Shown here one piece after another: positions 11,501-24,068 of a stretch of DNA of 64,000 bases (position 1 is the stretch's first letter; each line of letters begins with the position of its first letter). A program made the translations under genes and the position numbers. Source of the stretch: Edaphocola sp. (lineage in GTDB: Bacteria; Bacteroidota; Bacteroidia; Chitinophagales; Chitinophagaceae); contig DASSSY010000008.1 of the NCBI GenBank assembly GCA_035708205.1, positions 88,314-152,313 on the forward strand. Reading direction: 5' to 3'. Below the pieces are notes generated by a model. It was not told where the DNA came from. It worked only from the letters and a program-made list of their open reading frames with translations, and searched no databases.

Positions 11501-11799
11501 TTGTATGCTTTTTCACAGGCGGCAATGTAGCCTTCATTCATGGGCAGGTTTTTGAGCGCTTGTATGCCCCGCTCAATATTTTCATCTGTGAAAATGCTCG
11601 TCCGGGTAGCACTTACCCGAATACTGTTGATTTCCTTCAATTGCCTTCTCAGGATATCTTCCAGCAATACATTAGATGTTTTGCCACCTCTTTGCCGCTC
11701 AGCTTCTGCCGGACTAAGGTAACTGTAACCCAATTTCAGCAGCATTTGCAGCGCCGGAATCTGGCTGATATGATCTTCTTTGAAACTTGGTATATTCAT
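8572..11799 (-). CDS. hsdR: Type I restriction endonuclease subunit R
   Basis: 1075 aa. N-terminal nuclease-type region (MNIPSFKEDHISQIPALQML... CIIECKRP) and SF2 helicase motifs TQGSGKS and VLVDEGHR. Confidence 0.95.
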   Translation of the reverse strand: MNIPSFKEDHISQIPALQMLLKLGYSYLSPAEAERQRGGKTSNVLLEDILRRQLKEINSIRVSATRTSIFTDENIERGIQALKNLPMNEGYIAACEKAYNLLTLGQALEQSVDGDKKSFTLQYIDWKNISNNVFHVTEEFSVMRSTSKEHYRPDLVLFVNGIPLCIIECKRPDRKEPLSQAISQQLRSQQADGIRSLYVYAQLLLSISCNDALYATNATPEEFWSKWKEKFETVEEEQTYKARLQDIKNEPLSDGIKNQLFADRFKYVRQYFDALKQETILPTEQDRYLYGLCRPKRLMDIIFNFILFDNGEKKVTRYQQFFSIKKTMQRIEHIENGRRKGGVIWHTQGSGKSLTMVMLAQAIAMDPGIQNPKIILVTDRTDLDRQLTGTFRKCGKFVENATTGQRLVELLESKSDAVVTTIINKFVAAVKKINKPLESPDIFVLVDEGHRTQHGIFNIDMQKTLPNACFIAMTGTPLFKKDKSTAAKFGGIIDAYTVDEAVRDRAVVPLLYEGRVASQKVNENPIDTFFGMVSEPLTDYQKADLKKKFARADQLNGAEQKIYAIAWDISRHFRSNWQGTPFKAQLVCDKKVNAIRYKEFLDEIGIVTSEVLISPIDEREGEETAYEKSSEKVNRFWQRMMEEHGNAKKYETNVINRFKNQRDPEIIIVVDKLLTGFDEPKNTVLYLTRNLRGHKLLQAIARVNRIYPDKDFGYIIDYYGVIENLDDALKLYSSFEDFDEEDLAGTLTNISEEIKKLPQKHSDLWDIFKTITNKRDAEAYQQLLKDEAKRVLFYDKLADFAKSLKLALSSIQFHNEVEEKVIDRYKEDLAMFLKLRLAVVERYSDVINYKQYEGQIQKLIDTHITTEKIETITELVNIFDKDKFQQEVENTTGKAAKADKIASRTAKHIREKMDEDPAFYKKFSQMLKDAIADYEAKRINEAQYLKRVQEIMNDVLAHTDKDIPEQLKERDIAKAFYGLTVEVLSEKIQDKLTCKNISTQTALHIDDFIQHSVLDDGKPIVDWQIKTNITGRLFIEIGDYLIDEVRDKYNIDLSFDEMDKIAEGCIEVAKLRYKI

Positions 11800-11888
11800 T
11801 TTCCCTGTATCCTTATTGTCTTCTAATAATTTTCTTCACTCCAATTAAAATGAACCGCTCACATACTTATGATTATCAGTATATTGTA

Positions 11889-11924
11889 AATTCTTCTCTT
11901 AATTCTTCTCTTAATTCTTCTCTT
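11889..11924. repeat. 12-bp x3 perfect tandem repeat (aattcttctctt; minus strand AAGAGAAGAATT)
   Basis: Units at 11889-11900, 11901-11912 and 11913-11924. It lies in the 139-nt gap between the AlbA_2-like gene and hsdR. Confidence 0.9.
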
Positions 11925-11938
11925 AAATACTTGCCCAA

Positions 11939-13600
11939 TCACTTTTTAAGAGACCATTTGGGTTTACTATAAGTACCTGTATTTTCAATTCTTTCTTTCA
12001 TCCTTAATTCTGATAGTAGGTTCCCAATCTTGTTTTTCTTCTGCTTATCATCCATCCAGTCTGGTAGCTTCTTCCACAACAATTCGTCTATGTCACTCCT
12101 TTCCAGTATCTTATGTTCTCTGATTGCTTTTTCAATTAAATCCAGATAATAGCTCTTATCAAAAGCCTTGTTTTTAGAATAAGCGGCCTTTTGACCTGTT
12201 TTTGCGGCTACTTTTATTCCTATGTAATAGTTTGGCTTCCTCCCCTCAATCAGGTTTTTGTTCCGTAAGTGCTTCTCTTCAAAAGCCGATAAAGTTTGCT
12301 TCTTCTGAACTTTGTCCAGCATCATAATTTCTTCCAAAGTCAGGTCTTTATTCTGAGCAAGTAATCGGGCATAATTCATGTCCAGGATTTTTCCCGAAAT
12401 GGACACTTTTACTCTATCGTTAGACAAGTCGTAATCAGGTAAAGGAAAAAATCGCGCTCGCTGAAAATTAAATATTTTCTTAATGCCCCCGCCGGCAGTA
12501 TCTACCATTTTAAGATTAAACATAGCGGTTGCCAGGAAACGGTTTCGGTAATATTCTTCGGGTGCATCTTCTATAACCACCTTTTCTACGTTTCCGGGAA
12601 TAAAGGAACCCTGATTGGTGAATACCAGTTGATCGGGCATCTCTATGACGTTTATTCTCGCGTTTTTTGTATAATCCTGATGAGCAATACAGTTATTGAT
12701 GGCTTCACGGATGGAGAACGGCTCATACTTTGATACTTCTGTAGGAAAAATAGTTCCTTCCTGCATATAGCGATACTTGATATTCCGAACCTTTGCATAT
12801 ACCTTTTCTACGGAAAGAATGAAAGGCAACCCAAAAATCTCATAATCTATATCATTGTTCTTTTCATCAACCAACTTCCAACGAATTTTGATATCAGCAG
12901 GACTCAGAAAATGCTCGGATTCATCTTTTCCTAAAAGGATGAGTGCCGTTCGGGTAATTTTTCCTTTGATGGTTACTTTTGATTTATTGAGAAAAGCAAT
13001 ATCATCCCAGGCATCCACTTCTTGCGCTTTATCTGGAAATTTATTTTTAAAGTTTTTTCTGGCCAGCGCAATGGCATCTTCGTCCAAATCTTCCACTGAA
13101 GCACCGGAGACAATGGCCGCACTCCAGTCTTCTTTAATTGCCTGAGCACGAATACGTTCAATTTTTTCAAGATTCAGCGGGGCTAATTCTTCTCCGTCAC
13201 GGGCGTAATAATGCCCATCAAATGCAATTGGAATCCCCCGCGGAGCCGCCGGAATCTGAAACATAATAACACGGCCATCGGTGGTATTGAGCTCGTGAAT
13301 CTCAATAAAAGAAATCCGATTGGTAGTTTTATTGGCAATCTCACCTTTTAAGCTGTCAAGATCCTTTCGTAAAGTTCTAAAATTACTTCCAATAATAGAA
13401 TGATCTTTATCTCTTATACCAAAAACCAGCCAGCTATAAGGCTTGCCTTTTAAATTGGCCTCATTACTTAAGGCAGAAAAGTATTTCCCCAGTTTGGTAA
13501 AGTCATAACCTTTTTTAGCTTCCTTAAATTCAACAATTTCATTCTCGGCCGTGAGATCGAGGAGGCTTTGAAGGATATGTCTTAATTCTGTCATAGGCAT
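11939..13600 (-). CDS. AlbA_2 (Schlafen-like) DNA-binding domain plus HATPase_c_4-type ATPase plus C-terminal wHTH protein ('RecG-like' transcriptional regulator family)
   Basis: The N-terminus ENEIVEFKEAKKGYDFTKLGKYFSALSNEANLKGKPYSWLVFGI is typical of AlbA_2. The central region has NNCIAHQDY and MVDTAGGGIKKIF. Confidence 0.7.
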   Translation of the reverse strand: MPMTELRHILQSLLDLTAENEIVEFKEAKKGYDFTKLGKYFSALSNEANLKGKPYSWLVFGIRDKDHSIIGSNFRTLRKDLDSLKGEIANKTTNRISFIEIHELNTTDGRVIMFQIPAAPRGIPIAFDGHYYARDGEELAPLNLEKIERIRAQAIKEDWSAAIVSGASVEDLDEDAIALARKNFKNKFPDKAQEVDAWDDIAFLNKSKVTIKGKITRTALILLGKDESEHFLSPADIKIRWKLVDEKNNDIDYEIFGLPFILSVEKVYAKVRNIKYRYMQEGTIFPTEVSKYEPFSIREAINNCIAHQDYTKNARINVIEMPDQLVFTNQGSFIPGNVEKVVIEDAPEEYYRNRFLATAMFNLKMVDTAGGGIKKIFNFQRARFFPLPDYDLSNDRVKVSISGKILDMNYARLLAQNKDLTLEEIMMLDKVQKKQTLSAFEEKHLRNKNLIEGRKPNYYIGIKVAAKTGQKAAYSKNKAFDKSYYLDLIEKAIREHKILERSDIDELLWKKLPDWMDDKQKKNKIGNLLSELRMKERIENTGTYSKPKWSLKK

Positions 13601-13610
13601 ACGTAAAATC

Positions 13611-14384
13611 TTATGAGTTTATCAATTCAGCAATTTCATTGGCTATTTCTTCAACGGTAAAATTTGCCGTATTACGGGCAAGCTTATCAGCTATTGAAGG
13701 GGAAAAATCAACTACTTCCTGTTTTGTTATATTGTGCCAAATTGGGAGTAATACTTGTTCCCCACTTACAACCTTTGTAATGATTCCATCCAATTCGTAA
13801 TTTGTCCAACCTTTCTTAATAAAATTCCTTGATAATACAACTATTCCAAATTTACTTTTGGCAAGTCCTTTGTCTATCTTCTGCCTTAAACTGTCACCAA
13901 TTTTCAATTCAAACTCGTCATACCAAACGGATAGCCCTGCGTTTCTAAGTGCGATAGCTAATGGCCGAACTATTTCATCCTTATCTTCGGAGGCATGGGA
14001 AATAAATACATCATGCTCTCTGTAAGCCCCATTATCAAACCCAAATGGAGATTGCGCTCCACCCTGAACCAATGAAGGCACCGACGATAATGGAGCATCT
14101 TGATAAACTGGTAAAGCGGAAGGTAATATCTGTACATTAGCATTTGTGGAGCCTCTCAATCCTTGCATATCAACCGTTACATAGTAGTGCCCCGAACTTG
14201 GAACCCCTAATATAACTGGTGATTTTGTTACTAATCCGCCTACATAACGATGACTCCTTCCCGATTTATAATTATTGTAATTGGAGTTATCCATTAAACG
14301 AACATTCGCAGCATTTCCAGTTAATGTTACCTTAACTCGTTCACCTCTTTTAAGCTGTTTTAAGTCCCAAACTAAATATTCCAT
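13611..14384 (-). CDS. DUF1883-TIR domain protein
   Basis: N-terminal ~95 aa (LKRGERVKVTLTGNAANVRLMDNSNYNNYKSGRSHRYVGG) is DUF1883-like. C-terminal TIR has HDVFISHASEDKD and a candidate catalytic Glu in WTNYELDG. Confidence 0.75.
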   Translation of the reverse strand: MEYLVWDLKQLKRGERVKVTLTGNAANVRLMDNSNYNNYKSGRSHRYVGGLVTKSPVILGVPSSGHYYVTVDMQGLRGSTNANVQILPSALPVYQDAPLSSVPSLVQGGAQSPFGFDNGAYREHDVFISHASEDKDEIVRPLAIALRNAGLSVWYDEFELKIGDSLRQKIDKGLAKSKFGIVVLSRNFIKKGWTNYELDGIITKVVSGEQVLLPIWHNITKQEVVDFSPSIADKLARNTANFTVEEIANEIAELINS

Positions 14385-14406
14385 ATTTTTTATTTTACTT
14401 CTTTTT

Positions 14407-15273
14407 TCAACTTACAGGAAATTTATCTCCAAACAACTGCTTCCAGATATTCAGGGCATTTTTATTACTATTAGTTTGAATTGCTAACTCCGCATCTTTA
14501 AGCATTTGCCGGAACGTTTCTTTGAATTTAGTTCGTTGATCAAAATCCAATTTTAATAAATTATCTTGTGGTGTTGCCGGATTAATAACCTCAGTATCTC
14601 CGTTCCAAAACCCTCCAAAAGTTGATTCAATGGCTTTGGCTGTTTCAAAAAATGCTTTATCATCTCGGCTGTTTGGTTTGTAATTATTAGTAACCCAAAT
14701 CGTGAAAGAGATTCCATTTGGCATTTTTCTGCTCCGCTGATATGCCCATGCTTTAAAGTATTTCACCAGCCGTATTAGCTGCCCATTTTTATCTTTTCTC
14801 TTCTCAAACCAATCACACAGTTCTTTTGGATCACTTTGTAGCCAACCTTTCTTCGTAGCTAAAAAGGGATGTTTGTCATGGGGTGTTTTATAATACACAG
14901 GTAAGTCAATATCATAATCGCCTTGGTAAATGACTCGGATACATTTCTCTCTGTGCTCAACACCTCCTACAGTACAGCCATTTACAGCATTGTGAACATT
15001 TTTTTGTAAACTTAATGATTCAATTTTGGGTTTCTCCAGAAAATAAATTCCTAAGTCAACATCATAAGTGCCATTCTTTTTTACTACCATAGTTCCCATT
15101 TTGTAAGAACCCTGTATATAAAATCTTGGTGTAAGGAATTTTGCATGTGATTTAAAATGTTCACGAATACGATTCTCTAATGCTTTTCGTGAAGCAATCA
15201 GCTTTTTCTTTTTGGCAGGACTAAGCGAAATAGCCCGTTCAAATTGCAAAAATTGCTTATAAGTGTTTCCCAT
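14407..15273 (-). CDS. CD-NTase-like (cGAS/DncV-like) nucleotidyltransferase, short form (288 aa)
   Basis: Pol-beta NTase triad layout: IQGSYKMGT, YDVDLGIYF and DYDIDLPVYY, followed by WLQSDPKELCDWF and LIRLVKYFKAW. Confidence 0.75.
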   Translation of the reverse strand: MGNTYKQFLQFERAISLSPAKKKKLIASRKALENRIREHFKSHAKFLTPRFYIQGSYKMGTMVVKKNGTYDVDLGIYFLEKPKIESLSLQKNVHNAVNGCTVGGVEHREKCIRVIYQGDYDIDLPVYYKTPHDKHPFLATKKGWLQSDPKELCDWFEKRKDKNGQLIRLVKYFKAWAYQRSRKMPNGISFTIWVTNNYKPNSRDDKAFFETAKAIESTFGGFWNGDTEVINPATPQDNLLKLDFDQRTKFKETFRQMLKDAELAIQTNSNKNALNIWKQLFGDKFPVS

Positions 15274-15284
15274 TGCGCTATGAA

Positions 15285-16349
15285 TTACTTAGCATCAAAG
15301 AATTTACTGCCACTCCCAAAATTCTTAATAATATCGGTAGCATTTTTTTGAAATTCTATATTGGCTTTCTCAGCGAGTTTTTTAAGTTTTCCTTTATTTG
15401 TTTCGTCCATTTCAATAGGGCAACTTTCATCTAATTGTGTATCAATTCTTATGTAGTGAAAGTTATCCGGCTCTTGTTTGTCAATACCATTTTTTAAGAT
15501 GCTAATTAAGTTTTGCGCTTGTTGAGTTTGACCTTGCATAAAAACTTCAATCAGCCGTTTCTTTCCATCTCCAAGCATCCAGTAATAAATGCCATATTTC
15601 ACGCGATGTTTTTTCTTCTTGTCTATTCCGGCGTCACAAAAGCGTTGATGTCCCGTTCCGACGGATAAAACAGATAAGTCTTTTAGCTCAAGGTTGAAAG
15701 CTTTTTTTGCTTCGATAATTCCATTTAACGTTGGGTTATTTGCAAATACACCTCCGTCCACTTTATTTTGGAAAGGTTTTTCTAATCCATTCAAATCAAT
15801 GTAAGAAGCTGAATATGGGTCAAAATAAGTGGGGGCAGCTGAAGTCGCCAATGCGGCTTGGTATGCCGGAATATGAAAGTCTCTGACAAAGGCTGGATGA
15901 TATTTACTCTTTAGAACCGAAGGCCTTCCTTCCATTAAATCATAAATGGGAATGGCTACATGTGTTTTACAATGTTTTAATCTTGGGTCTTCTCCATCTT
16001 CTCCATTGTGATAAGCCTTGTATTTGTCCCGGATTAACTTTTCTAAAGCATCACGATTGTAAGCAGCATATTTAAATCGTTTCAGAAAGCCCTTTTTATT
16101 ACCAAAAATAGTCTCAGCATTATTCAAATAGAGTTCGTAAATCTCTTTTGCAGGAATACCCAAGGCCAAAGCAATTGCCATAATTCCGCCTGTGGAAGTA
16201 CCACAGATTAAATCGAAGTTCTGATAAACCTGCCATTTCTCAATGCCTTTGGCTTTGAGTTCTGCTTCATAGTTGGCTAAAAACATTGCTGGGAAAATGC
16301 CTCTGATTCCGCCACCATCTATGGATAATATTTTGAAGGGTTCTGCCAT
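15285..16349 (-). CDS. Patatin-like phospholipase (CapV-like)
   Basis: Oxyanion-hole motif DGGGIRG, nucleophile elbow GTSTG, and catalytic Asp in VDGGVFANNP. 354 aa. Confidence 0.85.
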   Translation of the reverse strand: MAEPFKILSIDGGGIRGIFPAMFLANYEAELKAKGIEKWQVYQNFDLICGTSTGGIMAIALALGIPAKEIYELYLNNAETIFGNKKGFLKRFKYAAYNRDALEKLIRDKYKAYHNGEDGEDPRLKHCKTHVAIPIYDLMEGRPSVLKSKYHPAFVRDFHIPAYQAALATSAAPTYFDPYSASYIDLNGLEKPFQNKVDGGVFANNPTLNGIIEAKKAFNLELKDLSVLSVGTGHQRFCDAGIDKKKKHRVKYGIYYWMLGDGKKRLIEVFMQGQTQQAQNLISILKNGIDKQEPDNFHYIRIDTQLDESCPIEMDETNKGKLKKLAEKANIEFQKNATDIIKNFGSGSKFFDAK

Positions 16350-16350
16350 A

Positions 16351-17607
16351 TTATTTGATTCTGATTTTACCAGTTAATAATTGCTGCATCAATCCTTTCT
16401 TCTGCATCCTTAGTTTCTCCGCTTTGACCTTGAGCAGGTTAATTTCTTTATCTGCTGCTCGCAAGATTTGGACAATCGCTGTTTGCTCCTTAATTGTCGG
16501 GATAAAAAACTTCATTGAACAAAGCCCATCAAAAGATAAGCTATCTCGTACACTACCTTGAACGAACATCGGGATATGGCCGTAAAACCATTGTGTTTTT
16601 AAGTGGAAGTAAAGAAAATCCGCCAGCAGACGTTTTTCGTCCGTTGCAAATATAATATACATCGGGCTTAAAATCCCAGCTTCCAAATTTCTTAGCAAAT
16701 CGAGCGAGCCAACATTAACCCTGGATGGATTGTAGGCAAATTGACCTTTCTTGACTATCTTATAATTTGAAGTATTCTCACTTGCAACGGTTCTATCAAA
16801 TTGGTCCGTTTGGTTAATAAATCCTCTAGAATTGGTTACAGATAAAATGTTTAAAACCTTTGCCTCTTTATTTCTTTCTGAAATTTCCCTTATAAACTGG
16901 CCAACGGCTTTTAGCTTAACTTCCCCACTAAACCCGTTCGACCGTATTTTCCCACTTAACAATTGCTGCATTAGCCATTTTTTGCGAAGTTCTTTTTGGG
17001 CTATGAGTTTATCGGTGGCCGCAATGACAGCATCGCATGATTTTAATATTCTTGCAATTGATTGTTGTTCAGGAATAGTTGGGAGTGGAATTTTAACTTG
17101 AGAAAGGTCTCCTTGTCCAATATTTGTTCTAACCGCACCTTGACCATTTCGTATAATTTGATTCCTTACAATACTTGAACGAAGACAATATCTTTTATAA
17201 AAATCATCTATTGATTTGTTCAATGGTCGCCCTCTTATCACAAAGCCTCCAAATACAACTTCATCTGTTCCATTATAAACGGCAGATAAACCAATTTCTT
17301 CAACCGTTTCCGATGTCCTGTTGAAAAGCACATCTCCATCTTTTACTAAGTATAGTTCTTTCTGCTCATCGGATATTTGGACTGTTCCGGGAATCAAGTC
17401 AGGTGTGATATAGTCATTATAAATAACTTCCATAACGTTAATAAACTTAACACCACTCCCATAACTTTCTTTTCCAGCATTGATACCGTTTTTAAAATCA
17501 AACAGTTTACCTAATTTAATTACATCCCACTCACTTGGAATTACGGCATCAAGGGAAGGCCTTTTTAAATTGCTGTTTTTATTTTTTACTTCTGGTTGCT
17601 TCATCAT
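16351..17607 (-). CDS. hsdS: Type I R-M specificity subunit, full length with two TRDs
   Basis: Two TRD halves, each ending in the conserved PLPTIPEQQSIARIL / IPTIKEQTAIVQIL motif plus a coiled-coil ending LMQQLL(S/T)GKIR. Confidence 0.9.
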   Translation of the reverse strand: MMKQPEVKNKNSNLKRPSLDAVIPSEWDVIKLGKLFDFKNGINAGKESYGSGVKFINVMEVIYNDYITPDLIPGTVQISDEQKELYLVKDGDVLFNRTSETVEEIGLSAVYNGTDEVVFGGFVIRGRPLNKSIDDFYKRYCLRSSIVRNQIIRNGQGAVRTNIGQGDLSQVKIPLPTIPEQQSIARILKSCDAVIAATDKLIAQKELRKKWLMQQLLSGKIRSNGFSGEVKLKAVGQFIREISERNKEAKVLNILSVTNSRGFINQTDQFDRTVASENTSNYKIVKKGQFAYNPSRVNVGSLDLLRNLEAGILSPMYIIFATDEKRLLADFLYFHLKTQWFYGHIPMFVQGSVRDSLSFDGLCSMKFFIPTIKEQTAIVQILRAADKEINLLKVKAEKLRMQKKGLMQQLLTGKIRIK

Positions 17608-18064
17608 TAGTTTCTTTTAGTTTGTTAGCTTGCTTTTCCGCTTCGGTTTCGTTATGAATACCGCCACCACGCCAAGTGCCGGTACATAGCCAAAGTTCAT
17701 AATGACACAGCCATTCGCAGGCCCAAGGAATTAATGTTCGAATATAAAGCATCCCAACATTCCACTCCACACGATTAGGATAATACAAGCACAATCGCTG
17801 GTCAGGTGTCGAATAGACGTGCGGTAAAGTCTTCTTCCCTTCAGCAAGAGCTAATGGTTTCGGTTCTATTACATATACCCTAATGCCGTTATTTCTAATG
17901 TATGTCAATTTTAATTTGTAAGTATTGCTTAGCGGTGATGGTGTAACTGAACCTGTCCAAGTGAGAGATTCTTCGCGGAAGCGTCTTATTGTACAATCAG
18001 GAAATATCTTTTTTAATGTTCCTTCCTGCACAATCAGTGATATCCTATTGTTCTTCTTTACCAT
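17579..18064 (-). CDS. Stand-alone UBC/E2-like protein (candidate catalytic Cys92)
   Basis: YKLKLTYIRNNGIRVYVIEPKPL...LPHVYSTPDQRLCLYYPNRVEW...TLIPWACEWL mirrors the E2 core pattern (beta-meander, His 10 residues before Cys-Leu, downstream Trp and helix). It overlaps the NTase gene by 20 nt and hsdS by 29 nt. The call is by eye only. Confidence 0.55.
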   Translation of the reverse strand: MVKKNNRISLIVQEGTLKKIFPDCTIRRFREESLTWTGSVTPSPLSNTYKLKLTYIRNNGIRVYVIEPKPLALAEGKKTLPHVYSTPDQRLCLYYPNRVEWNVGMLYIRTLIPWACEWLCHYELWLCTGTWRGGGIHNETEAEKQANKLKETNDEATRSKK

Positions 18065-19280
18065 AGAAGTTATGATTTTTCAAAGTTGTGCCAACGCTAC
18101 CTAACATTCCGGAAGATGCCGCCATTTTCAGTTCTCCGTTTTCCCGAAGCAATCTGGTTTTTTCGCTATAATTAGAGAATGCTTTTGCAACCACATTTTC
18201 TCCAAATGGTTTTGATAATGCTTCCTTAATAAAATGCAAGCCTCGTTGTCTTATGGCGTACTGTAGATCAAGTTTAACCTGCTTAATCCACTTATAGAAA
18301 TTTTCTTGCTTTTGCGGGTTCTCCGGCCATTTATCAGCAAAGTTCTCGGTATCATTTACCGGATTACCAATCCATTTGATATTTTTTCTATATTTCTCTG
18401 AATATCGTTCTTCTATGAAAGCTGACATTCTTTCAACTACCTTCAACAAGGCTTCTATAATATCAGTTTCCTTATGATAGGCTCTGGCAGCAAGCGTGGT
18501 AATAATGATGGAAATAGGTTTATCTTCATCCCCGTTGAACATCATATCTCTATGTCGTTTCAAAATTTGAACGACACGTTGTAGAGGTAATTTTCTTGTC
18601 TGGTATTTAGGAACCGGCTGTACCGCTTCGCTCATCAGGCGGAGTTCACTTGTAAGCAATTTTGCTCTGTTTTCGAACCAGATACCATAGCCGAAGGGGT
18701 TACTCTTAGGCCACCATTCCGGTTGGGTTTCCATCCTATAATTTATTTCGAGTTTATCAGTGATGCGAATGGCAAGTGTTTCAAAATCTACGGTGGAAGC
18801 TGAAAGACTTTTTTCTAACAGAACCCGGTATCCACTACTTACAATAGCGGGTAAAATGTCCAGATGGAATTTGGCTGAATCTGCATACTGTAATGTCCAA
18901 CATCTTCTTCCGTCTGGTATTTTTAGCAGACGTTTTAAAGTTCCATGGTTAACCAGTCGCTGACCAACTATTTGTTTCAGATTATATTGCGTCCATTCAG
19001 GCCTTTTACCTTCAAGCCTACAAACTAAGTCAATATCAAGTTCATCATCATCATGTATAGGTTTAATCATTGTGCCCAGCATAAATGAACCTTGTGGCAA
19101 TATTTCCGGGTTATACGGAGAAAGATTCGATTCTGGAGCGGAAAGCCATTCCCCCACAAACTCATAACTTTTAACCGCTGCGTCATGCTGTTCTTTGGTT
19201 ATATCAAGCGACTTTCCTAATTCTTCCAGTATATCACTAAATTGTTTTTTTTGTTCTGCTGTAAGCATATTAAATAGCAT
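18045..19280 (-). CDS. SMODS / CD-NTase-like nucleotidyltransferase (411 aa)
   Basis: QGSFMLGT, ELDIDLVC and FHLDILPAI form the catalytic triad layout. Downstream are WPKSNPFGYGIWF and LQRVVQILKRHRD helices. The start overlaps the hsdM stop by 11 nt. Confidence 0.75.
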   Translation of the reverse strand: MLFNMLTAEQKKQFSDILEELGKSLDITKEQHDAAVKSYEFVGEWLSAPESNLSPYNPEILPQGSFMLGTMIKPIHDDDELDIDLVCRLEGKRPEWTQYNLKQIVGQRLVNHGTLKRLLKIPDGRRCWTLQYADSAKFHLDILPAIVSSGYRVLLEKSLSASTVDFETLAIRITDKLEINYRMETQPEWWPKSNPFGYGIWFENRAKLLTSELRLMSEAVQPVPKYQTRKLPLQRVVQILKRHRDMMFNGDEDKPISIIITTLAARAYHKETDIIEALLKVVERMSAFIEERYSEKYRKNIKWIGNPVNDTENFADKWPENPQKQENFYKWIKQVKLDLQYAIRQRGLHFIKEALSKPFGENVVAKAFSNYSEKTRLLRENGELKMAASSGMLGSVGTTLKNHNFYGKEEQ

Positions 19281-20829
19281 TTAATTGTTTAAGGTATTTA
19301 TCCATTTCCGCTTGTACGGTTTTCAATTCGTCTTCTAATTGCTCTATCTCATTTTGCACCGCAGCAATATCCACTTCTGGTTCTTCTTCAAAAGTATCCA
19401 CATAGCGGGGTATATTCAGGTTAAAGTCGTTTTCCTCTATTTCTTCAAAAGTGGCTATATAACTATATTTATCTTCGACCACACCCGGTTGTAGTTTGCC
19501 GGCGGTAAAACCCCGGTAAGTATTTACAATATGGTCAATATCCTCTGGGCGCAGCTTATTTTGATTTTTGGCGCTTTCATAGTGCTTGCTGGCATCAATG
19601 AACAATACATTATTGCTGCTTTTCACCTTATTAAAGATGAGAATGGCCGCCGGAATACCGGTACCAAAAAACAGGTTGGCCGGTAAGCTAATAACGGCTT
19701 CCAACAGATTTTCTTCAATGGTTTTTTTACGAATCTTCCCTTCGCTGGCTCCACGAAATAACACACCATGAGGTACGACCACGCCCGCTTTTCCGTTCTC
19801 ATTCAACGTTTCTATCATGTGGGTAATGAATGCCCAGTCGCCTTTGCTCTTGGGCGGCACACCCCGCCAAAAGCGGTTGTACTTATCCGTTTCCGGGTCA
19901 TAGCTAACGGTAGTTTTTTCGCCGTCTTTATCTTCCACCTTTCCCCATTTGTCCAAAGAAAAGGGCGGATTGGCTACAACGGTGTCAAATTTCATCAAAG
20001 CATCGCCTTCTTTAAGCTTGGGGTTACGAATAGTATCGCCCCAGCGAATGGTGGCGTTGTCAAAGCCATGCAGGAACATATTCATCACCGCCAGCGCCCA
20101 GGTGCTGCCATTGGCTTCCTGTCCATAGAGCGAAAAATTATCGGAACCTACTTCTTCACCTGCTTTTATCAGCAATGAAGCAGAGCCGCAGGTAGGGTCG
20201 GCAATGCGAGACCCCGGCTTTGATTTAGTAAGTTTGGCAATGAGCGTAGATACTTCCCTCGGGGTGAAAAACTCCCCCGCCTTTTTCCCGGCATCGCTGG
20301 CAAAGTTTTCAATCAGGAACATGTACGCACCACCAATAATATCCACGCCATCTAAATGAGAGGGCCTTAAATCAAGATCTTCTTTATTAAAATCCAGCAA
20401 CAGGTTCTTCAATCGGATATTTTTATCCTTCGTTTCCCCCAACTTGCTGCTGTTAAAGTCGATATTCTGGAATATACCGGCGCCATCTTCACTGTATAAT
20501 TTTTCGCGATTGGCTTCTTCCAAATCCGCCAAGGCAATATTAATCAGTTCGCCGATATTGGCCTCATTACGATGGTCATATAAGTATCTAAAGTGACTTT
20601 GTTCAGGCACAATAAAGCGTTCGTGCTGCATGGCACGCTTGGCGCGTTCTGTATCCCCATTGTATTTTTTCAAGTAAGCTTCATACTTATCGTCATACAC
20701 ATCGCTGAGGTATTTGATGAACATCATGGTCAGCACATAATCTTTGTAAACACTTGGATCAATGCTTCCACGAAACGTATCGCAGGCTTTCCAGACGGCA
20801 TCATTGATTTTTTTTTGGGTTATCTTCAT
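19270..20829 (-). CDS. hsdM: Type I R-M DNA methyltransferase subunit M (N6-adenine)
   Basis: HsdM N-terminal domain, SAM motif DPTCGSASLL, and catalytic VVANPPFS. Confidence 0.95.
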   Translation of the reverse strand: MKITQKKINDAVWKACDTFRGSIDPSVYKDYVLTMMFIKYLSDVYDDKYEAYLKKYNGDTERAKRAMQHERFIVPEQSHFRYLYDHRNEANIGELINIALADLEEANREKLYSEDGAGIFQNIDFNSSKLGETKDKNIRLKNLLLDFNKEDLDLRPSHLDGVDIIGGAYMFLIENFASDAGKKAGEFFTPREVSTLIAKLTKSKPGSRIADPTCGSASLLIKAGEEVGSDNFSLYGQEANGSTWALAVMNMFLHGFDNATIRWGDTIRNPKLKEGDALMKFDTVVANPPFSLDKWGKVEDKDGEKTTVSYDPETDKYNRFWRGVPPKSKGDWAFITHMIETLNENGKAGVVVPHGVLFRGASEGKIRKKTIEENLLEAVISLPANLFFGTGIPAAILIFNKVKSSNNVLFIDASKHYESAKNQNKLRPEDIDHIVNTYRGFTAGKLQPGVVEDKYSYIATFEEIEENDFNLNIPRYVDTFEEEPEVDIAAVQNEIEQLEDELKTVQAEMDKYLKQLNAI

Positions 20830-20848
20830 TAGATATGAGTTATGAGAT

Positions 20849-21211
20849 TTAAGATTTGAGATTTTTTTGTTTGATCGTTAAGATAGTACTTCGAAGCATT
20901 TTCAAAATTTGAGTAGCCTCGTCAGATAGCTTTTCGAATGCACCCTTGTTAATATATTCGGTAAAATAAAGTAATTCCAACCAGTAAAGAGCCTCATCGC
21001 ATTCTTTTTGAGCGATACCAAGTTTATGCACAAAATCATTTTTGCTTTCAGCGTTTTTTGCTTCACGAATATTCGCACCGACCGAAGTACCTGAACGAAG
21101 TAGTTGTTTGCTCATTACAAATTCTTTCTTTTCTTCAGCCAGTGTTTTATACGCCTTCACCACTGAAATAGCAAAAGCAAAGGATTTTTCTTTTAGTATT
21201 GATTGGCTCAT
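20849..21211 (-). CDS. Four-helix-bundle protein (23S rRNA-intervening-sequence protein family)
   Basis: 120 aa with KSFAFAISVVKAYK...QLLRSGTSVGANIREA...SKNDFVHKLGIAQKECDEALYWLELL, typical of TIGR02436-type proteins. Confidence 0.75.
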   Translation of the reverse strand: MSQSILKEKSFAFAISVVKAYKTLAEEKKEFVMSKQLLRSGTSVGANIREAKNAESKNDFVHKLGIAQKECDEALYWLELLYFTEYINKGAFEKLSDEATQILKMLRSTILTIKQKNLKS

Positions 21212-21214
21212 ATC

Positions 21215-21781
21215 TTATCTCTCATAGTTTATAGCTTGAATAATTTGTTGTTGAATTTGTTGCTCCCGAAGTGAATCAATTTTCTGCTTCAGTACTCTTT
21301 CCCTATTCCGGAGTTTGGTAATTCGGAGGATTTTATTTTGTATTTCAATGTTGGGAATGGTAATCTCCAAGCCTTCTAAAACCGTTTTTGAGATAGAAGC
21401 CATCGAAGTTCCGATTGCCTGCTCTTTTAAAATTGTCCGAACAGCATGGTTATTAAGAAACCAAACCAAATATTCCGGCAGCACATTTTCGTCTTTAATC
21501 TTGATGACAAAAAAAGAGGTTGAAGCCACGGCGGGACGGTTATGACTTTCATAAATTGCCGCAAAATTCTTCGTGCCTTTAGCAGCAAAGAGCACATCGC
21601 CCGGCTTTAAAAGATGCCTTTCGGGAATGTCATCTGCAAATAAATCAGGAAAAAGCGTGGTTTGCAACTGACCATAATCGTCAAAATGCTTGACTTGTAG
21701 GTATAGTACATCACCTCTTCCCATTGGTTTTCCAAACAGCCCGGTTCGAATTTTAGCAATATCTTTGATGAGTTTTTCCAA
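21215..21781 (-). CDS. hsdS: Half-size type I specificity subunit (single TRD)
   Basis: 188 aa with one TRD, an ITIPNIEIQNKI motif and a coiled-coil tail. It is the first gene of the operon. Confidence 0.7.
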   Translation of the reverse strand: MEKLIKDIAKIRTGLFGKPMGRGDVLYLQVKHFDDYGQLQTTLFPDLFADDIPERHLLKPGDVLFAAKGTKNFAAIYESHNRPAVASTSFFVIKIKDENVLPEYLVWFLNNHAVRTILKEQAIGTSMASISKTVLEGLEITIPNIEIQNKILRITKLRNRERVLKQKIDSLREQQIQQQIIQAINYER

Positions 21782-21805
21782 ATTTATTCTTTTGTATTGA
21801 AGCTA

Positions 21806-21813
21806 CAAAAATA
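21806..21813 (-). promoter_or_regulatory. Bacteroidota -7 promoter motif TATTTTTG (TAnnTTTG) for the R-M/defence operon
   Basis: The minus strand reads TATTTTTGTAG, 25 nt upstream of the half-hsdS ATG. An identical 11-mer is repeated at 21867-21877. Confidence 0.45.
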
Positions 21814-22096
21814 GATAATGTTTTATAATCAACCAAATTTTTATAAAAAAATCCTAAGTAATTTTTCTACAAAAATACTTCTGCACCAAAAAAGGCCGAG
21901 TTCCGAGTGCCTTTTGTATCTCCGCCGGCGACTTTGGAGCTGGTGTGAAAGACGTTTGTCATACAAACGTACATCTTGTTGCCTGCGCTCCGAGGCAGGG
22001 TACGCTTAAAGTACCTGAGTTGGAGTCTTTCTTCAAATAAAGATATTTGGCCGCAAATTTGCTTTTAAAGTCCATTGTGGAAAGCCGGAAGGAAAA

Positions 22097-22465: not shown

Positions 22466-23719
22466 TCAAAGATGTAATTTTTTCTTCCTCTGATTCAATC
22501 TTCTTTCAACACTCGACATATCCGCGCCGATTTTTTCCTCATCTACTTCCGCATAAATTTGCGTTGTCGTTATTTTCGTATGTCCAAGCATCTTGGAAAC
22601 CGTTTCGATGGGAACACCGTTTTTCAGGGTTACCGCAGTGGCAAAAGTATGCCGGGCAAGATGGAAGTTCATCTCCTTGGTAATGCCGCAAACGGCACCG
22701 ATAATTTTTAAATTCCGGTTGACTTCCTGATTGGATATTGGTGGGAAAATGGTTCCGTTTTGTAATGCCCGCGGGTCATTTTTGTATTTATCCATGATAA
22801 CAATCGCAGCATTTAGAACAGGAACAGCAGACAATTCTTCCGACTTTTTCCGGTAAGTATCTATCCATAATTTTCCATCGTTGGCGACCAAAAGGTCATC
22901 TTTGGTGAGCTTGGCAACATCCGCATAGGCAAGGCCGGTGTAACAGGAAAATAAAAATAAATCTTGTACCAAAATCAATTTCGGATTACTGAATTGCTTT
23001 TCTTCTATGCTGATTAACTCCGGAATTTGTAATTTTTTTCTTTTGACTTTCTTTTTTTTAATCTGGTAATTTTCAAACGGATTATCTTTTATCCAGCCCA
23101 ATTTCTTCGACCATTTGACCATTTTCTTTAATCGTTCCAGATGTTTGGCAACGCCGTTACCTTTACAAACATCCCATTTTTTGATGGGGTAATGCCGTAT
23201 ATAATGCTCCAGCTCGGTAATAAATTGGTAATCCAGCTCGGAAAGAAAAATATCTTCCCGTTTAAAATTAACCTTCAGAAAACGCCGAATGTATTCCTCG
23301 GTGGTGACATAATTTTTCATTGTTCCGGGCGCCAATATATCGCGGTTAATGTCAAGATGGTATTTAAGCAATTGAAGAAGCGTAGGCGCAGATCGGTCTT
23401 GACCTAAAAATTTTTCTTTCAAAATTTCGGCGGATACCGGTTTTTGATGCAATACCATGTCATCATAAAAGTGATGAATCTTTAGTTTAACTTTTTCAAG
23501 GTAGAGATTAAGCTGTTTGATTTCCGGTGTTGCACCTTTAATTTTATCATCTTTCGCCAGCCAGATATTTACGGGAATTCTTCGTTTCAAGGAAATGTCG
23601 GCATTCTTTCTGTTGACGGAAATGAGCAGATAAAGGGGGGCCGTTCCTTCTTTGGTTTTGTACTTCTTTACAAAAAATGATACACCGAGTGTTGGCGTTT
23701 GTTGAGTCATGACATCCAA
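22466..23719 (-). CDS. Tyrosine site-specific integrase (Bacteroidota arm-binding type)
   Basis: N-terminal arm-DNA-binding-like segment (GVSFFVKKYKTKEGTAPLYLLISVNRK), HLARHTFAT, and LGHTKITTTQIYAEV with the catalytic Tyr. Confidence 0.9.
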   Translation of the reverse strand: MDVMTQQTPTLGVSFFVKKYKTKEGTAPLYLLISVNRKNADISLKRRIPVNIWLAKDDKIKGATPEIKQLNLYLEKVKLKIHHFYDDMVLHQKPVSAEILKEKFLGQDRSAPTLLQLLKYHLDINRDILAPGTMKNYVTTEEYIRRFLKVNFKREDIFLSELDYQFITELEHYIRHYPIKKWDVCKGNGVAKHLERLKKMVKWSKKLGWIKDNPFENYQIKKKKVKRKKLQIPELISIEEKQFSNPKLILVQDLFLFSCYTGLAYADVAKLTKDDLLVANDGKLWIDTYRKKSEELSAVPVLNAAIVIMDKYKNDPRALQNGTIFPPISNQEVNRNLKIIGAVCGITKEMNFHLARHTFATAVTLKNGVPIETVSKMLGHTKITTTQIYAEVDEEKIGADMSSVERRLNQRKKKLHL

Positions 23720-23993: not shown

Positions 23994-24009
23994 GTCGGGA
24001 AGACAGGAT
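23994..24009. repeat. tRNA-proximal att core
   Basis: Overlaps the last 15 nt of tRNA-Pro plus 1 nt beyond. Confidence 0.85.
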
Positions 24010-24068
24010 TCGAACCTGCGACCCCCTGGTCCCAAACCAGGTGCGCTACCGGCCTGCGCTACTTCCCG
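23995..24068 (-). tRNA. tRNA-Pro (anticodon TGG)
   Basis: Hand-folded cloverleaf: acceptor CGGGAAG/CTTCCCG, anticodon stem CCTGG/CCAGG with loop TTTGGGA, and T-loop TTCGAAT. 74 nt, CCA not encoded. Confidence 0.9.

What the first reader, a model, noticed from the sequence alone, without database searches (positions are those of the whole stretch)
11939..21781. Ten-gene, essentially gap-free operon in which type I R-M subunits alternate with signalling and defence genes
The minus-strand order is: half-hsdS, 4-helix-bundle protein, hsdM, NTase(411), E2-like, hsdS, patatin, CD-NTase(288), DUF1883-TIR, AlbA_2-ATPase. A 139-nt gap follows, then hsdR and the YgjP-like gene. Junctions within the operon are overlaps of 11, 20 and 29 nt or gaps of 1-22 nt. 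Only one promoter-like motif is visible, upstream of half-hsdS. 'Restriction-linked ORFs' such as prrC and rloC are established knowledge. Two separate CD-NTase modules splitting M from S and S from R is an unusual density. It forces co-transcription and likely translational coupling of R-M subunits with abortive-infection-type effectors. This suggests layered or cross-regulated immunity rather than accidental co-location.
Basis: partly seen in the sequence, partly recalled or inferred. Interest (0 to 1): 0.85.

Follow-up and report, generated by a model that had tools for sequence, protein, structure and literature searches.

The report
Restriction operon carrying a split CBASS
A mobile 16.8-kb island holds one long same-strand gene array in which a conserved Bacteroidota type I restriction system carries other anti-phage genes; this kind of embedding is already known, but here the restriction specificity gene sits inside a two-cyclase CBASS signalling system.

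Summary
All ten ORFs, their coordinates, their junctions and nine of the ten family labels check out; AlbA_2 was not detected.

The interpretation needs revising. The array is one instance of a widespread Bacteroidota type I R-M frame, halfS-[slot]-hsdM-[slot]-hsdS-[slot]-hsdR-ygjP. In 41 related loci that contain both hsdM and full hsdR, all 182 ORFs of 120 aa or more between them are on the same strand. A Bacteroidota promoter motif lies upstream of halfS in 77 of 83 loci and is rare elsewhere. Embedding of defence genes in type I R-M is published (Payne 2024, TgvAB, DarTG2).

The two CD-NTase modules are not separate. CdnG-E2 has no effector on its side of hsdS. In 8 of 8 genome loci, and in about 15 further loci, a CBASS effector (HNH-SAVED or patatin) follows hsdS. 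It is absent from 51 of 51 loci that lack CdnG-E2. Outside R-M loci the same genes are contiguous (CdnG-E2-patatin-CdnB). CdnB-patatin was accompanied by a second cyclase in 12 of 13 sampled contexts, and all four genes are under purifying selection.

TIR and the 553-aa protein are independent cargo. The whole array lies on a tRNA-Pro island next to dnaA.

Verdict: a new variant of a known kind, of moderate interest.

The parts
7207..7222 (.). Distal att core. A 16-nt direct repeat (GTCGGGAAGACAGGAT) of the 3' end of tRNA-Pro that marks the far end of the island.
   Evidence: Repeat family D17. The second copy, 23994-24009, lies inside tRNA-Pro.
7277..7301 (.). 25-nt box (GGGCCACGAATAGGGCACT core) repeated near both island ends. 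The other copy is at 23868-23892. Candidate integrase arm-type site.
   Evidence: Repeat family D16, 92% identical. The layout was checked. The binding function is inferred.
7662..7679 (-). Terminator-like GC-rich hairpin followed by a T-run, 118 nt downstream of ygjP. Likely end of the transcription unit.
   Evidence: 7-bp stem with 5 GC pairs, then a T-run.
7797..8540 (-). ygjP-like metallopeptidase gene, the last conserved gene of the R-M frame.
   Evidence: Pfam YgjP-like 4e-49. It follows hsdR in nearly all related loci.
8572..11799 (-). hsdR (1075 aa): HSDR_N nuclease, SWI2/SNF2 ATPase, T1R_D3 and a C-terminal domain.
   Evidence: 69-86% amino-acid identity in related loci.
11800..11938 (-). 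139-nt gap upstream of hsdR holding three tandem copies of a 12-nt unit (11889-11926). It contains no Bacteroidota -7 motif.
11939..13600 (-). 553-aa HATPase_c_4 protein. It is independent cargo that usually sits last before hsdR.
   Evidence: Pfam HATPase_c_4 2.7e-10 only. No PDB relative. Homologues of 73-80% identity occupy the same position in about 11 loci without CBASS.
13611..14384 (-). DUF1883-TIR protein (257 aa), an AbTIR/TcpB-like TIR domain. It is a single-gene defence candidate and independent cargo.
   Evidence: Pfam DUF1883 9e-28 and TIR_2 4e-21. PADLOC PDC-S66 7.7e-72 on the TIR part. PDB AbTIR 3.8e-55. 90% identical in L056 without CBASS. It follows CdnB in L132-L135.
14407..15273 (-). 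CdnB-clade CD-NTase (288 aa) with an intact catalytic set: G55 S56, D71xD73, D121xD123.
   Evidence: PDB 7LJO (BfCdnB, subclade CdnB04 per PMC10442399) 2.8e-52. NCBIfam cGAS hit above its cut-off. The motifs are invariant in 120 homologues.
15285..16349 (-). CapV-like patatin phospholipase (354 aa), the CBASS effector. It has GGGxRG and GxS52xG motifs.
   Evidence: NCBIfam CBASS_lipase 1.3e-75, above its cut-off. PADLOC phospholipase effector 2.5e-96. PDB CapV about 1e-34.
16351..17607 (-). hsdS (418 aa, two target-recognition domains), nested between E2 and the CBASS effector.
   Evidence: Methylase_S in two stretches. PADLOC Specificity_I 1.7e-85. Identity to other loci ranges from 28% to 82%.
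17579..18064 (-). CBASS E2 (161 aa). Cys92 lies in RLCLY and aligns with the SmE2 RLCLF motif.
   Evidence: PADLOC E2 1.4e-51. PDB 8hsb_B 5.5e-18. Pfam E2-CBASS on the identical protein.
18045..19280 (-). CdnG-clade CD-NTase (411 aa; the likely start at 19268 gives 407 aa). It has G64 S65, D82xD84 and D141, and the C-terminal NFYG407-KEEQ.
   Evidence: PADLOC cyclase 8.9e-134. PDB 9woo 1.8e-60, SmCdnG 8hsb 1.6e-34 and BdCdnG 7ljn. The C-terminal Gly plus short tail is conserved in about 50 homologues. Catalytic motifs are invariant.
19270..20829 (-). hsdM (519 aa), a frame gene.
   Evidence: N6_Mtase 8e-101 and HsdM_N. 81-91% amino-acid identity in 80 genomes across Bacteroidota.
20849..21211 (-). 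Four-helix-bundle protein (23S_rRNA_IVP / TIGR02436, 120 aa). It is optional cargo in the slot between halfS and hsdM.
   Evidence: Present in about 11 of roughly 130 related loci.
21215..21781 (-). Half-size HsdS-like gene (188 aa from a TTG start). It is the conserved first gene of the frame, not a remnant.
   Evidence: Methylase_S 8.6e-8. Present upstream of hsdM at 48-69% identity in essentially every related locus.
21782..21880 (-). Conserved promoter and leader. It holds -33 TTTG (21837-21834), -7 TATTTTTG (21813-21806) and two TTTGTAG-N6/7-TAC boxes (21873-21858 and 21809-21794).
   Evidence: Alignment A1 shows invariant columns across 34 loci.
22466..23719 (-). Tyrosine integrase (Arm-DNA-bind_5, SAM_5 and Phage_integrase domains).
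23994..24068 (-). tRNA-Pro(TGG), the integration target. Its last 16 nt form the proximal att core.

Best explanation
Window 7207-24009 is a 16.8-kb integrative island inserted in tRNA-Pro. It has its own tyrosine integrase, and its payload is a single 12-gene array, all on one strand.

The scaffold is a type I R-M frame that is widespread in Bacteroidota: halfS-hsdM...hsdS...hsdR-ygjP. Promoter-less cargo sits at three gene junctions: halfS|M, M|S and S|R. Transcription most likely starts at the one conserved Bacteroidota promoter upstream of halfS and ends at the hairpin after ygjP (inferred; there is no RNA data).

The main cargo here is one CBASS with two cyclases, laid out around hsdS. 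A CdnG-clade cyclase and its E2 regulator lie upstream of hsdS. A CapV-like patatin effector and a CdnB-clade cyclase lie downstream.

By analogy with characterised E2-CBASS and CapV systems, the likely mechanism (all inferred) is:
- E2 processes and tethers the C-terminal glycine of CdnG to control its activity.
- On infection, one or both cyclases make a cGAMP-type signal.
- The signal activates the phospholipase, which destroys the membrane (abortive infection).
- The R-M enzyme cuts unmethylated incoming DNA as the first line of defence.

DUF1883-TIR (a candidate NADase), the 553-aa HATPase_c_4 protein and the four-helix-bundle gene are separately acquired cargo.

The tight or overlapping junctions mean that hsdS and the effector are expressed as part of the same polycistron. 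There is no evidence that R-M and CBASS regulate each other.
For: Island.
- tRNA-Pro, a 16-nt direct repeat of its 3' end, and the integrase.
- Island GC 0.394 against 0.457 in the flanks.

Frame.
- 80 genome loci have hsdM at 81-91% identity and the same order of frame genes.
- All 182 ORFs of >=120 aa between hsdM and hsdR are on the same strand; the median junction is 6 nt.
- The promoter motif is upstream of halfS in 77 of 83 loci, against 10 hits in 242 tests upstream of hsdM, hsdS, hsdR and ygjP. The leader is conserved.

One CBASS unit.
- CdnG-E2 is always between hsdM and hsdS.
- An effector (HNH-SAVED or patatin) always follows hsdS: 8 of 8 genome loci with CdnG-E2, against 0 of 51 without it, Fisher p=4.5e-10. 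About 15 more such loci came.
- L109 is M-CdnG-E2-S-patatin-R with nothing else.
- Outside R-M the genes are contiguous: Cap5-CdnG-E2 (about 25 loci), CdnG-E2-Cap5 (L082, L112), CdnG-E2-patatin (L121), and CdnG-E2-patatin-CdnB (L097, L144).
- CdnB contexts sampled by CdnB homology have a second cyclase in 12 of 13 cases.
- The hsdS|Cap5 junction is -4 nt in 9 of 9 loci.

The genes look functional.
- Catalytic residues are invariant.
- The CdnG C-terminal Gly is conserved, as reported for E2-CBASS (PMC12948482).
- The E2 Cys aligns with that of SmE2.
- dN/dS is 0.05-0.08 for CdnG, E2, patatin and CdnB among loci lacking Cap5.

Independent cargo. TIR is 90% identical in L056, in a locus without CBASS. 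The 553-aa protein is present in about 11 loci without CBASS.
Against: - There is no transcript, methylation, nucleotide-product or phage data. The operon, the signal molecule and the cyclase-effector pairing are all inferred.
- Isolated -7-like motifs occur inside hsdM (19396), hsdS (16654), the patatin gene (16110) and the TIR gene (13854), so internal promoters cannot be excluded.
- The co-variation statistic ignores shared ancestry. R-M-embedded CdnGs form largely one clade, so part of the linkage may be inheritance rather than selection.
- CdnB plus an effector is normally a self-sufficient type I CBASS (PMC10402079). One sampled context (L146) shows patatin-CdnB with no recognisable second cyclase.
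- In L137 the whole unit sits downstream of hsdS, so nesting of hsdS is not obligatory.
- The window's CdnG is far from every relative (pN >= 0.237), whereas its patatin and CdnB are almost identical to those of L132. The partners have therefore been recombined, and their compatibility is not shown.
Confidence: 0.7

Rival explanations
1. Two independent CD-NTase modules (CdnG-E2, and patatin-CdnB) were inserted separately, one splitting M from S and the other S from R. The arrangement is selected because it forces co-transcription and cross-regulation of R-M with abortive-infection effectors (layered, cross-regulated immunity).
For: The genes share a strand and have tight or overlapping junctions, and there is a single conserved promoter. 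Published cases show that embedded systems complement the host system (TgvAB in a type I R-M, PMC11411939; BrxU in BREX, cited in 10.1101/2024.01.29.577857).
Against: CdnG-E2 has no effector of its own on its side of hsdS. The effector co-varies with CdnG-E2 across hsdS. The four genes are contiguous outside R-M loci (L097, L144). Most other cargo is shuffled independently between loci. Nothing in the sequence points to a regulatory link between R-M subunits and CBASS.
Confidence: 0.12
2. Patatin-CdnB is a complete type I CBASS that displaced the original HNH-SAVED (Cap5-like) effector. CdnG-E2 is now an effector-less leftover that is merely carried along.
For: CdnB systems are typically two-gene type I operons (PMC10402079). 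L060 has both Cap5-like and patatin-CdnB after hsdS, which looks like an intermediate. Cap5 and patatin-CdnB swap several times on the CdnG tree. L146 has patatin-CdnB without a recognisable second cyclase.
Against: CdnG and E2 are intact and under purifying selection in 16 Cap5-less loci that are diverged to synonymous saturation (dN/dS about 0.08). Their catalytic residues and C-terminal Gly are invariant. L109 and L121 pair CdnG-E2 with patatin and no CdnB. A second cyclase accompanies CdnB-patatin in 12 of 13 sampled contexts, including free cassettes.
Confidence: 0.15
3. Pure hotspot accumulation. The junctions of this R-M frame are recombination hotspots where promoter-less cassettes collect, much as in an integron. 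The position of hsdS inside the CBASS is a frozen accident of one ancestral rearrangement, inherited by descent, with no functional meaning.
For: Cargo is highly variable and mosaic at the same junctions. R-M-embedded CdnGs are largely one clade. L137 shows the unit working-order intact downstream of hsdS. GC3 of the cargo and hsdS (0.29-0.38) differs from that of hsdM and hsdR (0.47-0.48). The hsdS-hsdR junction has been proposed as a hotspot elsewhere (PMC12255303).
Against: The nesting persists although hsdS itself has been swapped repeatedly (28-82% identity) and the effector has been exchanged. The same nesting recurs with a different first cyclase, a CdnG-like protein fused to AGS_C in L136, whose free form L139 is contiguous. 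This rival is compatible with most of the best explanation; it differs only on whether the nesting matters.
Confidence: 0.45

Closest known systems
Defence genes embedded in type I R-M systems: 'guilt by embedding' (Payne et al. 2024, bioRxiv 10.1101/2024.01.29.577857), TgvAB in V. cholerae VPI-2 (PMC11411939), DarTG2 between hsdS and hsdR with RptR (PMC12255303), and PrrC / restriction-linked ORFs
   Same: Foreign defence genes sit between hsd genes in the same orientation (96.7% in Payne et al.; 182 of 182 here). The hsdS-hsdR junction is a hotspot. The TIR gene matches a PADLOC 'PDC' model that was itself derived from such embedded genes.
   Different: Here a multi-gene signalling system is itself interrupted by an R-M gene, so the embedding is mutual. 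There are three slots, all filled. The frame has a conserved half-hsdS as first gene and a conserved leader. No small repressor gene like rptR is present.
E2-CBASS (type II 'short' CBASS): SmCdnG-SmE2 of Serratia marcescens (PDB 8HSB; PMC12948482)
   Same: A CdnG-clade cyclase of about 410 aa with a conserved C-terminal Gly and a short tail, followed by an E2 of about 160 aa with the aligned Cys. There is no E1 or JAB. Relatives use the HNH-SAVED effector.
   Different: The effector is a patatin and is separated from cyclase-E2 by hsdS. A second cyclase, of the CdnB clade, belongs to the unit.
Type I CBASS CapV/cyclase pairs and CdnB systems (BfCdnB, PDB 7LJO; BtCdnB-Cap14, PMC10402079; CapV, PMC12480259)
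   Same: The order patatin-then-cyclase, a CapV-like effector above the NCBIfam cut-off, and a CdnB-clade cyclase with an intact active site.
   Different: The pair is not a stand-alone two-gene operon. In 12 of 13 sampled contexts a second cyclase is adjacent: CdnG plus E2, a CdnG-like protein fused to AGS_C, or a CdnB-like protein plus E2.
Panoptes (mCpol decoy nucleotides guarding a 2TM effector; PMC12657218)
   Same: This is only a conceptual parallel: a nucleotide synthase whose product might serve something other than direct activation.
   Different: There is no homology. Nothing here shows an inhibitory or decoy role for either cyclase.

Membership tests
Type I restriction-modification system | HsdM with an N6-adenine methyltransferase domain and the HsdM N-terminal domain | tested here: met
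   N6_Mtase 7.7e-101 and HsdM_N 6.5e-26.
Type I restriction-modification system | HsdS with two target-recognition domains | tested here: met
   Methylase_S in two stretches in the 418-aa protein. Full-length PADLOC Specificity_I match, 1.7e-85.
Type I restriction-modification system | HsdR with an N-terminal nuclease domain and an SF2 motor | tested here: met
   HSDR_N 2.6e-37, SWI2_SNF2 2.7e-76, T1R_D3 and T1RH-like_C.
Type I restriction-modification system | Sequence-specific methylation and restriction activity | not testable with these tools
   This needs methylome sequencing and restriction assays.
E2-CBASS (type II short CBASS) | A CD-NTase, mostly clade G and about 400 aa, with an intact GS / DxD / D active site | tested here: met
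   PDB CdnG hits. G64 S65, D82xD84 and D141 are invariant in 51 homologues.
E2-CBASS (type II short CBASS) | A conserved C-terminal glycine on the cyclase, used for E2 processing and linkage | tested here: met
   NF[YH]G followed by 1-4 residues in about 50 homologues; NFYG-KEEQ in the window. The feature is described in PMC12948482.
E2-CBASS (type II short CBASS) | A stand-alone E2 with the conserved Cys, and no E1 or JAB partner | tested here: met
   PADLOC E2 1.4e-51 and 8hsb_B 5.5e-18, with RLC92LY aligned to the SmE2 RLCLF. No E1 or JAB gene lies in the island. That this Cys is the catalytic residue rests on my recollection of the SmE2 work, not on a test here.
E2-CBASS (type II short CBASS) | An effector gene in the same operon as cyclase and E2 | tested here: inconclusive
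   No effector is adjacent. A CapV-like patatin follows the intervening hsdS. Comparative linkage supports it as the effector, but activation by the CdnG product is untested.
Type I CBASS (two-gene cyclase plus effector) | A cyclase and an effector only, with no ancillary CBASS genes | tested here: not met
   Patatin-CdnB is accompanied by CdnG-E2 here, and by a second cyclase in 12 of 13 sampled contexts.
Thoeris | A ThsB-like TIR protein together with a ThsA (SIR2 or Macro/SLOG) effector | tested here: not met
   TIR matches ThsB models, but no ThsA-like gene lies in the island.
PADLOC candidate PDC-S66 | A match to the PDC-S66 profile | tested here: inconclusive
   7.7e-72, but only residues 121-256 match profile positions 146-281 of 282, which is the TIR part. 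The DUF1883 N-terminus is not covered by the model.
Phase-variable hsdS shufflon | Inverted repeats shared by alternative hsdS copies, with a nearby recombinase acting on them | tested here: not met
   No direct or inverted repeat of >=14 nt links halfS and hsdS, and both are on the same strand. The integrase is associated with the tRNA att repeats instead.
tRNA-integrated genomic island | A tyrosine integrase next to a tRNA gene, with a direct repeat of the tRNA 3' end at the far boundary | tested here: met
   There is also a compositional step. Excision and an empty site were not tested.

The most novel reading that the evidence does not exclude
hsdS is kept inside a two-cyclase CBASS because the two systems are functionally coupled.

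One possibility is that translation of the lethal phospholipase is made dependent on passage through hsdS. A second is that CBASS monitors the state of the R-M complex, for instance its inhibition by phage anti-restriction proteins. A third is that the second cyclase (CdnB) supplies a constitutive or guard signal.

If any of these holds, 'CdnG-E2 / CapV / CdnB' would be a distinct CBASS class in which two cyclases converge on one effector, and the R-M frame would be an integrated part of its control.
Probability: 0.12. Interest if true: 0.85.

Novelty: new variant of a known kind. Interest (0 to 1): 0.55.

Why it matters
Embedding of defence genes in R-M loci is known. Two points found here were not in any paper I could search.

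1. A conserved CBASS unit with two active-looking cyclases, one E2 and one patatin effector. This raises the question of why two sensors or synthases feed one effector.
2. A recurrent layout in which the R-M specificity gene lies between the CBASS sensor half and its effector.

The Bacteroidota frame, with its conserved leader and three cargo slots, is also a practical handle for discovering new defence genes. It offers a natural system for testing whether co-transcription of first-line defence (R-M) and abortive-infection defence (CBASS, TIR) is functionally important or merely a way of expressing promoter-less cassettes. Cultured carriers exist: Lacibacter cauensis, Cryomorpha ignava, and Parasediminibacterium sp. 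JCM 36343, which has the free cassette.

Tried and rejected
- Phase-variable hsdS shufflon (halfS recombining with hsdS by means of the integrase): rejected. There are no shared repeats, and the two genes are on the same strand.
- Sigma-70 promoter scan: 53 hits against 44.8 expected. This is uninformative for Bacteroidota, so I replaced it with a TAnnTTTG scan.
- Idea that the CdnB C-terminal 'FGxKFP' is a second E2 substrate site: rejected, because the motif is equally present in CdnBs from E2-less cassettes.
- Promoter test on free CBASS cassettes as a positive control: only 3 of 29 carry the motif, so the control is uninformative.
- AlbA_2 label for the 553-aa protein: not detected by Pfam at E<=1, and there is no PDB relative.
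- Viral contigs searched with CdnB: nothing found.
- Plasmid search with CdnG: only distant hits (42% or less) in unrelated contexts, for example Haliscomenobacter pHALHY02.
- Literature. None found a paper on a CBASS split by hsdS or on two-cyclase CBASS. Burroughs et al. 2015 and Millman et al. 2020 are not held, so prior mention there cannot be excluded.
- How hsdS came to lie inside the CBASS (tandem duplication followed by deletion, or two separate insertions) could not be resolved from the data.

Full report
**1. Observation**

With longest ORFs the junctions are +3, +19, -11, -20, -29, +1, +11, +22 and +10 nt. A 139-nt gap, hsdR (11799-8572), a 31-nt gap and ygjP (8540-7797) follow.

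An independent gene call on the only other contig carrying the identical HsdM (a Logan contig of the same locus) starts the 411-aa NTase 1 nt after the hsdM stop. It also starts halfS at an internal ATG.

The family assignments hold:
- half-size Methylase_S;
- 23S_rRNA_IVP / TIGR02436 four-helix bundle;
- HsdM;
- CD-NTase (PADLOC cyclase, 8.9e-134);
- CBASS E2 (1.4e-51);
- HsdS with two target-recognition domains;
- CBASS phospholipase (NCBIfam CBASS_lipase, above its cut-off);
- a second CD-NTase;
- DUF1883 plus TIR;
- a 553-aa protein in which only HATPase_c_4 is detectable. AlbA_2 was not found.

**2. Setting**

The array sits on an integrative island.
- tRNA-Pro lies at 23994-24068, on the minus strand.
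- A tyrosine integrase lies at 23719-22466.
- The last 16 nt of the tRNA are repeated at 7207-7222.
- A 25-nt box is repeated just inside both ends, at 7277-7301 and 23868-23892.
- Island GC is 0.394, against 0.457 in the flanks.
- dnaA and the cumulative GC-skew minimum lie immediately beyond the tRNAs.

**3. The R-M frame is a widespread scaffold**

A scan of one genome per species with HsdM returned 80 loci with 81-91% amino-acid identity. They span Chitinophagales, Flavobacteriales, Cytophagales, Bacteroidales, Sphingobacteriales and a few Chlorobiota and Ignavibacteriota MAGs.

Every locus has the order halfS-(4HB in some)-hsdM-(0-4 genes)-hsdS-(1-6 genes)-hsdR-ygjP.

The half-hsdS is conserved at 48-69% identity in every locus, whereas hsdS ranges from 28% to 82%. 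halfS is therefore a conserved component of the frame, not debris.

In the 41 loci that contain hsdM and full-length hsdR:
- all 182 ORFs of >=120 aa between them are on the frame strand;
- the median junction is 6 nt.

The cargo is diverse and mosaic:
- Metallophos;
- HATPase_c_4 proteins;
- Fic, RhuM, KilA-N and Bro-N;
- a DUF3010-kinase-phosphatase trio;
- SMODS-AGS_C plus SLATT;
- short pAgo;
- TIR plus SLOG;
- OLD-like ATPase;
- PDC-M04;
- GGDEF;
- Pycsar.

**4. Promoter**

The generic sigma-70 scan is uninformative here. I therefore used the Bacteroidota -7 consensus, TAnnTTTG.
- In the window, the only -33/-7 matches on the coding strand lie just upstream of halfS: -33 at 21837-21834 and -7 at 21813-21806.
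- Across the related loci, the -7 motif occurs within 250 nt upstream of halfS in 77 of 83 loci, 48 of them with a -33 element.
- The corresponding figures are 2/88 upstream of hsdM, 6/71 of hsdS, 2/46 of hsdR and 0/37 of ygjP.
- The leader is conserved at the nucleotide level and carries two TTTGTAG-N6/7-TAC boxes (alignment A1).
- No credible terminator lies inside the block. A hairpin with a T-run follows ygjP at 7679-7662.

A single transcript of about 14 kb is thus the best-supported reading. It remains an inference.

**5. The two CD-NTase modules are one system arranged around hsdS**

The 411-aa enzyme is CdnG-like.
- PDB hits: 9woo, SmCdnG 8hsb and BdCdnG 7ljn.
- The next gene is an E2 that aligns with SmE2, including the Cys.
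- The cyclase ends in NFYG-KEEQ. A Gly followed by 1-4 residues is conserved in about 50 homologues. This is the hallmark reported for E2-CBASS (PMC12948482).

This pair has no effector on its side of hsdS. The evidence that the effector lies on the other side is:
- In the genome set, which was fetched by HsdM and is therefore unbiased with respect to CBASS, CdnG-E2 occurs in 8 loci, always between hsdM and hsdS.
- All 8 have a CBASS effector downstream of hsdS. It is a 375-aa HNH-SAVED protein (Cap5-like) or a patatin.
- None of the 51 loci without CdnG-E2 has either effector (Fisher p=4.5e-10). Shared ancestry inflates this figure.
- A metagenome scan with CdnG added about ten more R-M loci with the same layout. 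One is L109, which is M-CdnG-E2-S-patatin-R and nothing else.
- The same scan found about 30 loci outside R-M where the genes are contiguous: Cap5-CdnG-E2, CdnG-E2-Cap5, CdnG-E2-patatin (L121) and CdnG-E2-patatin-CdnB (L097).
- The hsdS|Cap5 junction is a 4-nt overlap in 9 of 9 loci. hsdS|patatin is usually +1 and E2|hsdS usually -26.

**6. The second cyclase belongs to the same unit**

The 288-aa enzyme is closest to BfCdnB (7LJO, 2.8e-52). That structure is assigned to subclade CdnB04 in PMC10442399. CdnB systems are normally two-gene type I CBASS (PMC10402079).

I sampled 13 genomic contexts of CdnB homologues (54-95% identity), chosen only for contig length. The results were as follows:

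| Layout | Loci |
|---|---|
| M-CdnG-E2-S-(small ORF)-patatin-CdnB | L132/L133, L138 (Lacibacter cauensis isolate), L141, L142, L145 |
| Free CdnG-E2-patatin-CdnB | L144 (Parasediminibacterium) |
| Patatin-CdnB-like(338)-E2-CdnB | L137 (Cryomorpha ignava, downstream of hsdS); L143 (free) |
| CdnG-like cyclase fused to AGS_C, then patatin-CdnB | L139/L140 (contiguous, free); L136 (split by hsdS, in the R-M frame) |
| No recognisable second cyclase | L146 |

Patatin-CdnB is therefore accompanied by another cyclase in 12 of 13 contexts.

Both cyclase families keep their GS / DxD / D residues invariant.

Among 16 loci that have patatin-CdnB and no Cap5:
- synonymous sites are saturated (pS about 0.78), while pN is 0.21-0.26;
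- pairs with dS<2 give dN/dS of 0.05-0.08 for CdnG, E2, patatin and CdnB alike.

CdnG-E2 is therefore not a decaying leftover.

The window is itself a mosaic. Its patatin and CdnB are almost identical to those of L132, but its CdnG is far from all relatives.

**7. Other cargo**

- DUF1883-TIR has an AbTIR/TcpB-type TIR domain (3.8e-55). It hits PADLOC PDC-S66 on the TIR part only.
- It occurs at 90% identity in L056 without any CBASS, and directly after CdnB in L132-L135.
- In other loci the position after CdnB is taken by GGDEF, DUF4917, PLDc_2 or Fic.
- The 553-aa protein recurs at 73-80% identity as the last gene before hsdR in about 11 loci that lack CBASS.

These genes are independent cassettes.

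**8. Mechanism (inferred)**

The island expresses its array from the halfS promoter. R-M restricts unmethylated DNA.

By analogy with SmCdnG-SmE2, the E2 cleaves after the C-terminal Gly of CdnG and links to it, which controls cyclase activity. On infection, CdnG and/or CdnB make a cGAMP-type dinucleotide that activates the CapV-like phospholipase. The TIR protein probably adds NAD+ depletion or signalling.

Three points remain unknown:
- why two cyclases serve one effector;
- why hsdS lies between them;
- how the nested arrangement arose.

**9. Comparison with the literature**

Embedding of defence genes within type I R-M is established. Same-strand orientation and the use of embedding to predict defence genes are also published. 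The sources are Payne et al. 2024 (10.1101/2024.01.29.577857), TgvAB (PMC11411939), DarTG2/RptR (PMC12255303) and PrrC.

I found no paper describing a CBASS interrupted by hsdS or a conserved two-cyclase patatin CBASS. Millman et al. 2020 and Burroughs et al. 2015 could not be read.

**10. Verdict**

The single-promoter, tightly packed array is real. The 'two separate modules', the 'unusual density' and the 'cross-regulation' are not supported.
- The locus is a new variant of a known kind: a known embedding phenomenon, with a specific, recurrent and apparently undescribed CBASS architecture.
- Interest is moderate.

Noticed in passing
window 7207-24009: The whole array lies on a 16.8-kb island inserted in tRNA-Pro. 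It has a tyrosine integrase, a 16-nt att repeat and a 25-nt box repeated inside both ends. It sits directly beside tRNA-Ser, dnaA (25759-24284) and the cumulative GC-skew minimum, that is, next to the likely replication origin.
   Followed up: partly
window 21782-21880; alignment A1 of 34 loci: The leader upstream of halfS is conserved at the nucleotide level across orders of Bacteroidota. It contains two TTTGTAG-N6/7-TAC boxes about 64 nt apart, and the second overlaps the -7 promoter element. They look like operator sites for an unidentified regulator.
   Followed up: partly
window 21215-21781 and all loci L002-L081: A half-size HsdS-like gene is the conserved first gene of this R-M family (48-69% identity), while the full hsdS is hypervariable. 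It may specify a second, symmetric methylation target or play a structural role.
   Followed up: partly
window 22097-22315: Six of the seven ATGGAACG octamers in the 64-kb window cluster here, in the 680-nt spacer between the integrase gene and the operon promoter. There are many further GGAACG variants. A 92-aa ORF (21959-22237) called across the cluster has no family match and is probably not a gene.
   Followed up: partly
window 11889-11926: Three perfect tandem copies of a 12-nt unit (AATTCTTCTCTT on the plus strand) lie in the 139-nt gap before hsdR. In many related loci a small ORF of 94-132 aa ends 1 nt before hsdR at this position.
   Followed up: no
window 8534-8582 and 20824-20860: Short repeats with 7-nt or 14-nt periodicity (ATGAATT / ATGAACG-like) fill the hsdR-ygjP junction. 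A related run in inverse orientation lies in the 4HB-hsdM junction, and a partly complementary stretch lies inside ygjP (8017-8053). Their meaning is unknown.
   Followed up: no
L136 (Logan ERR4195052) and the ENA contig listed: One R-M frame carries nine cargo genes with three nucleotide-cyclase systems. These are a CdnG-like cyclase fused to AGS_C, then hsdS and patatin-CdnB, followed by DUF4917 and a Pycsar-like set (Guanylate_cyc, a second weak cyclase-like protein, PycTM).
   Followed up: partly
L003, L035, L060, L107, L137, L138: A GGDEF-domain protein of about 253-269 aa repeatedly follows CdnB, in the position that DUF1883-TIR occupies in the window. It may be a further nucleotide-signalling partner of this CBASS.
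   Followed up: no
window 8572-11799 and 19270-20829 compared with 11939-19280: The frame genes hsdM and hsdR have GC3 of 0.47-0.48, close to the host flanks. hsdS and all the cargo have GC3 of 0.29-0.38. The inner block and the frame therefore have different histories.
   Followed up: partly
L009, L066; L043, L057; L079: The same R-M frame carries a short pAgo (Piwi) with a partner of about 300 aa, Thoeris-like TIR plus SLOG trios, and an OLD/AAA_15 ATPase in the slot between hsdS and hsdR.
   Followed up: no
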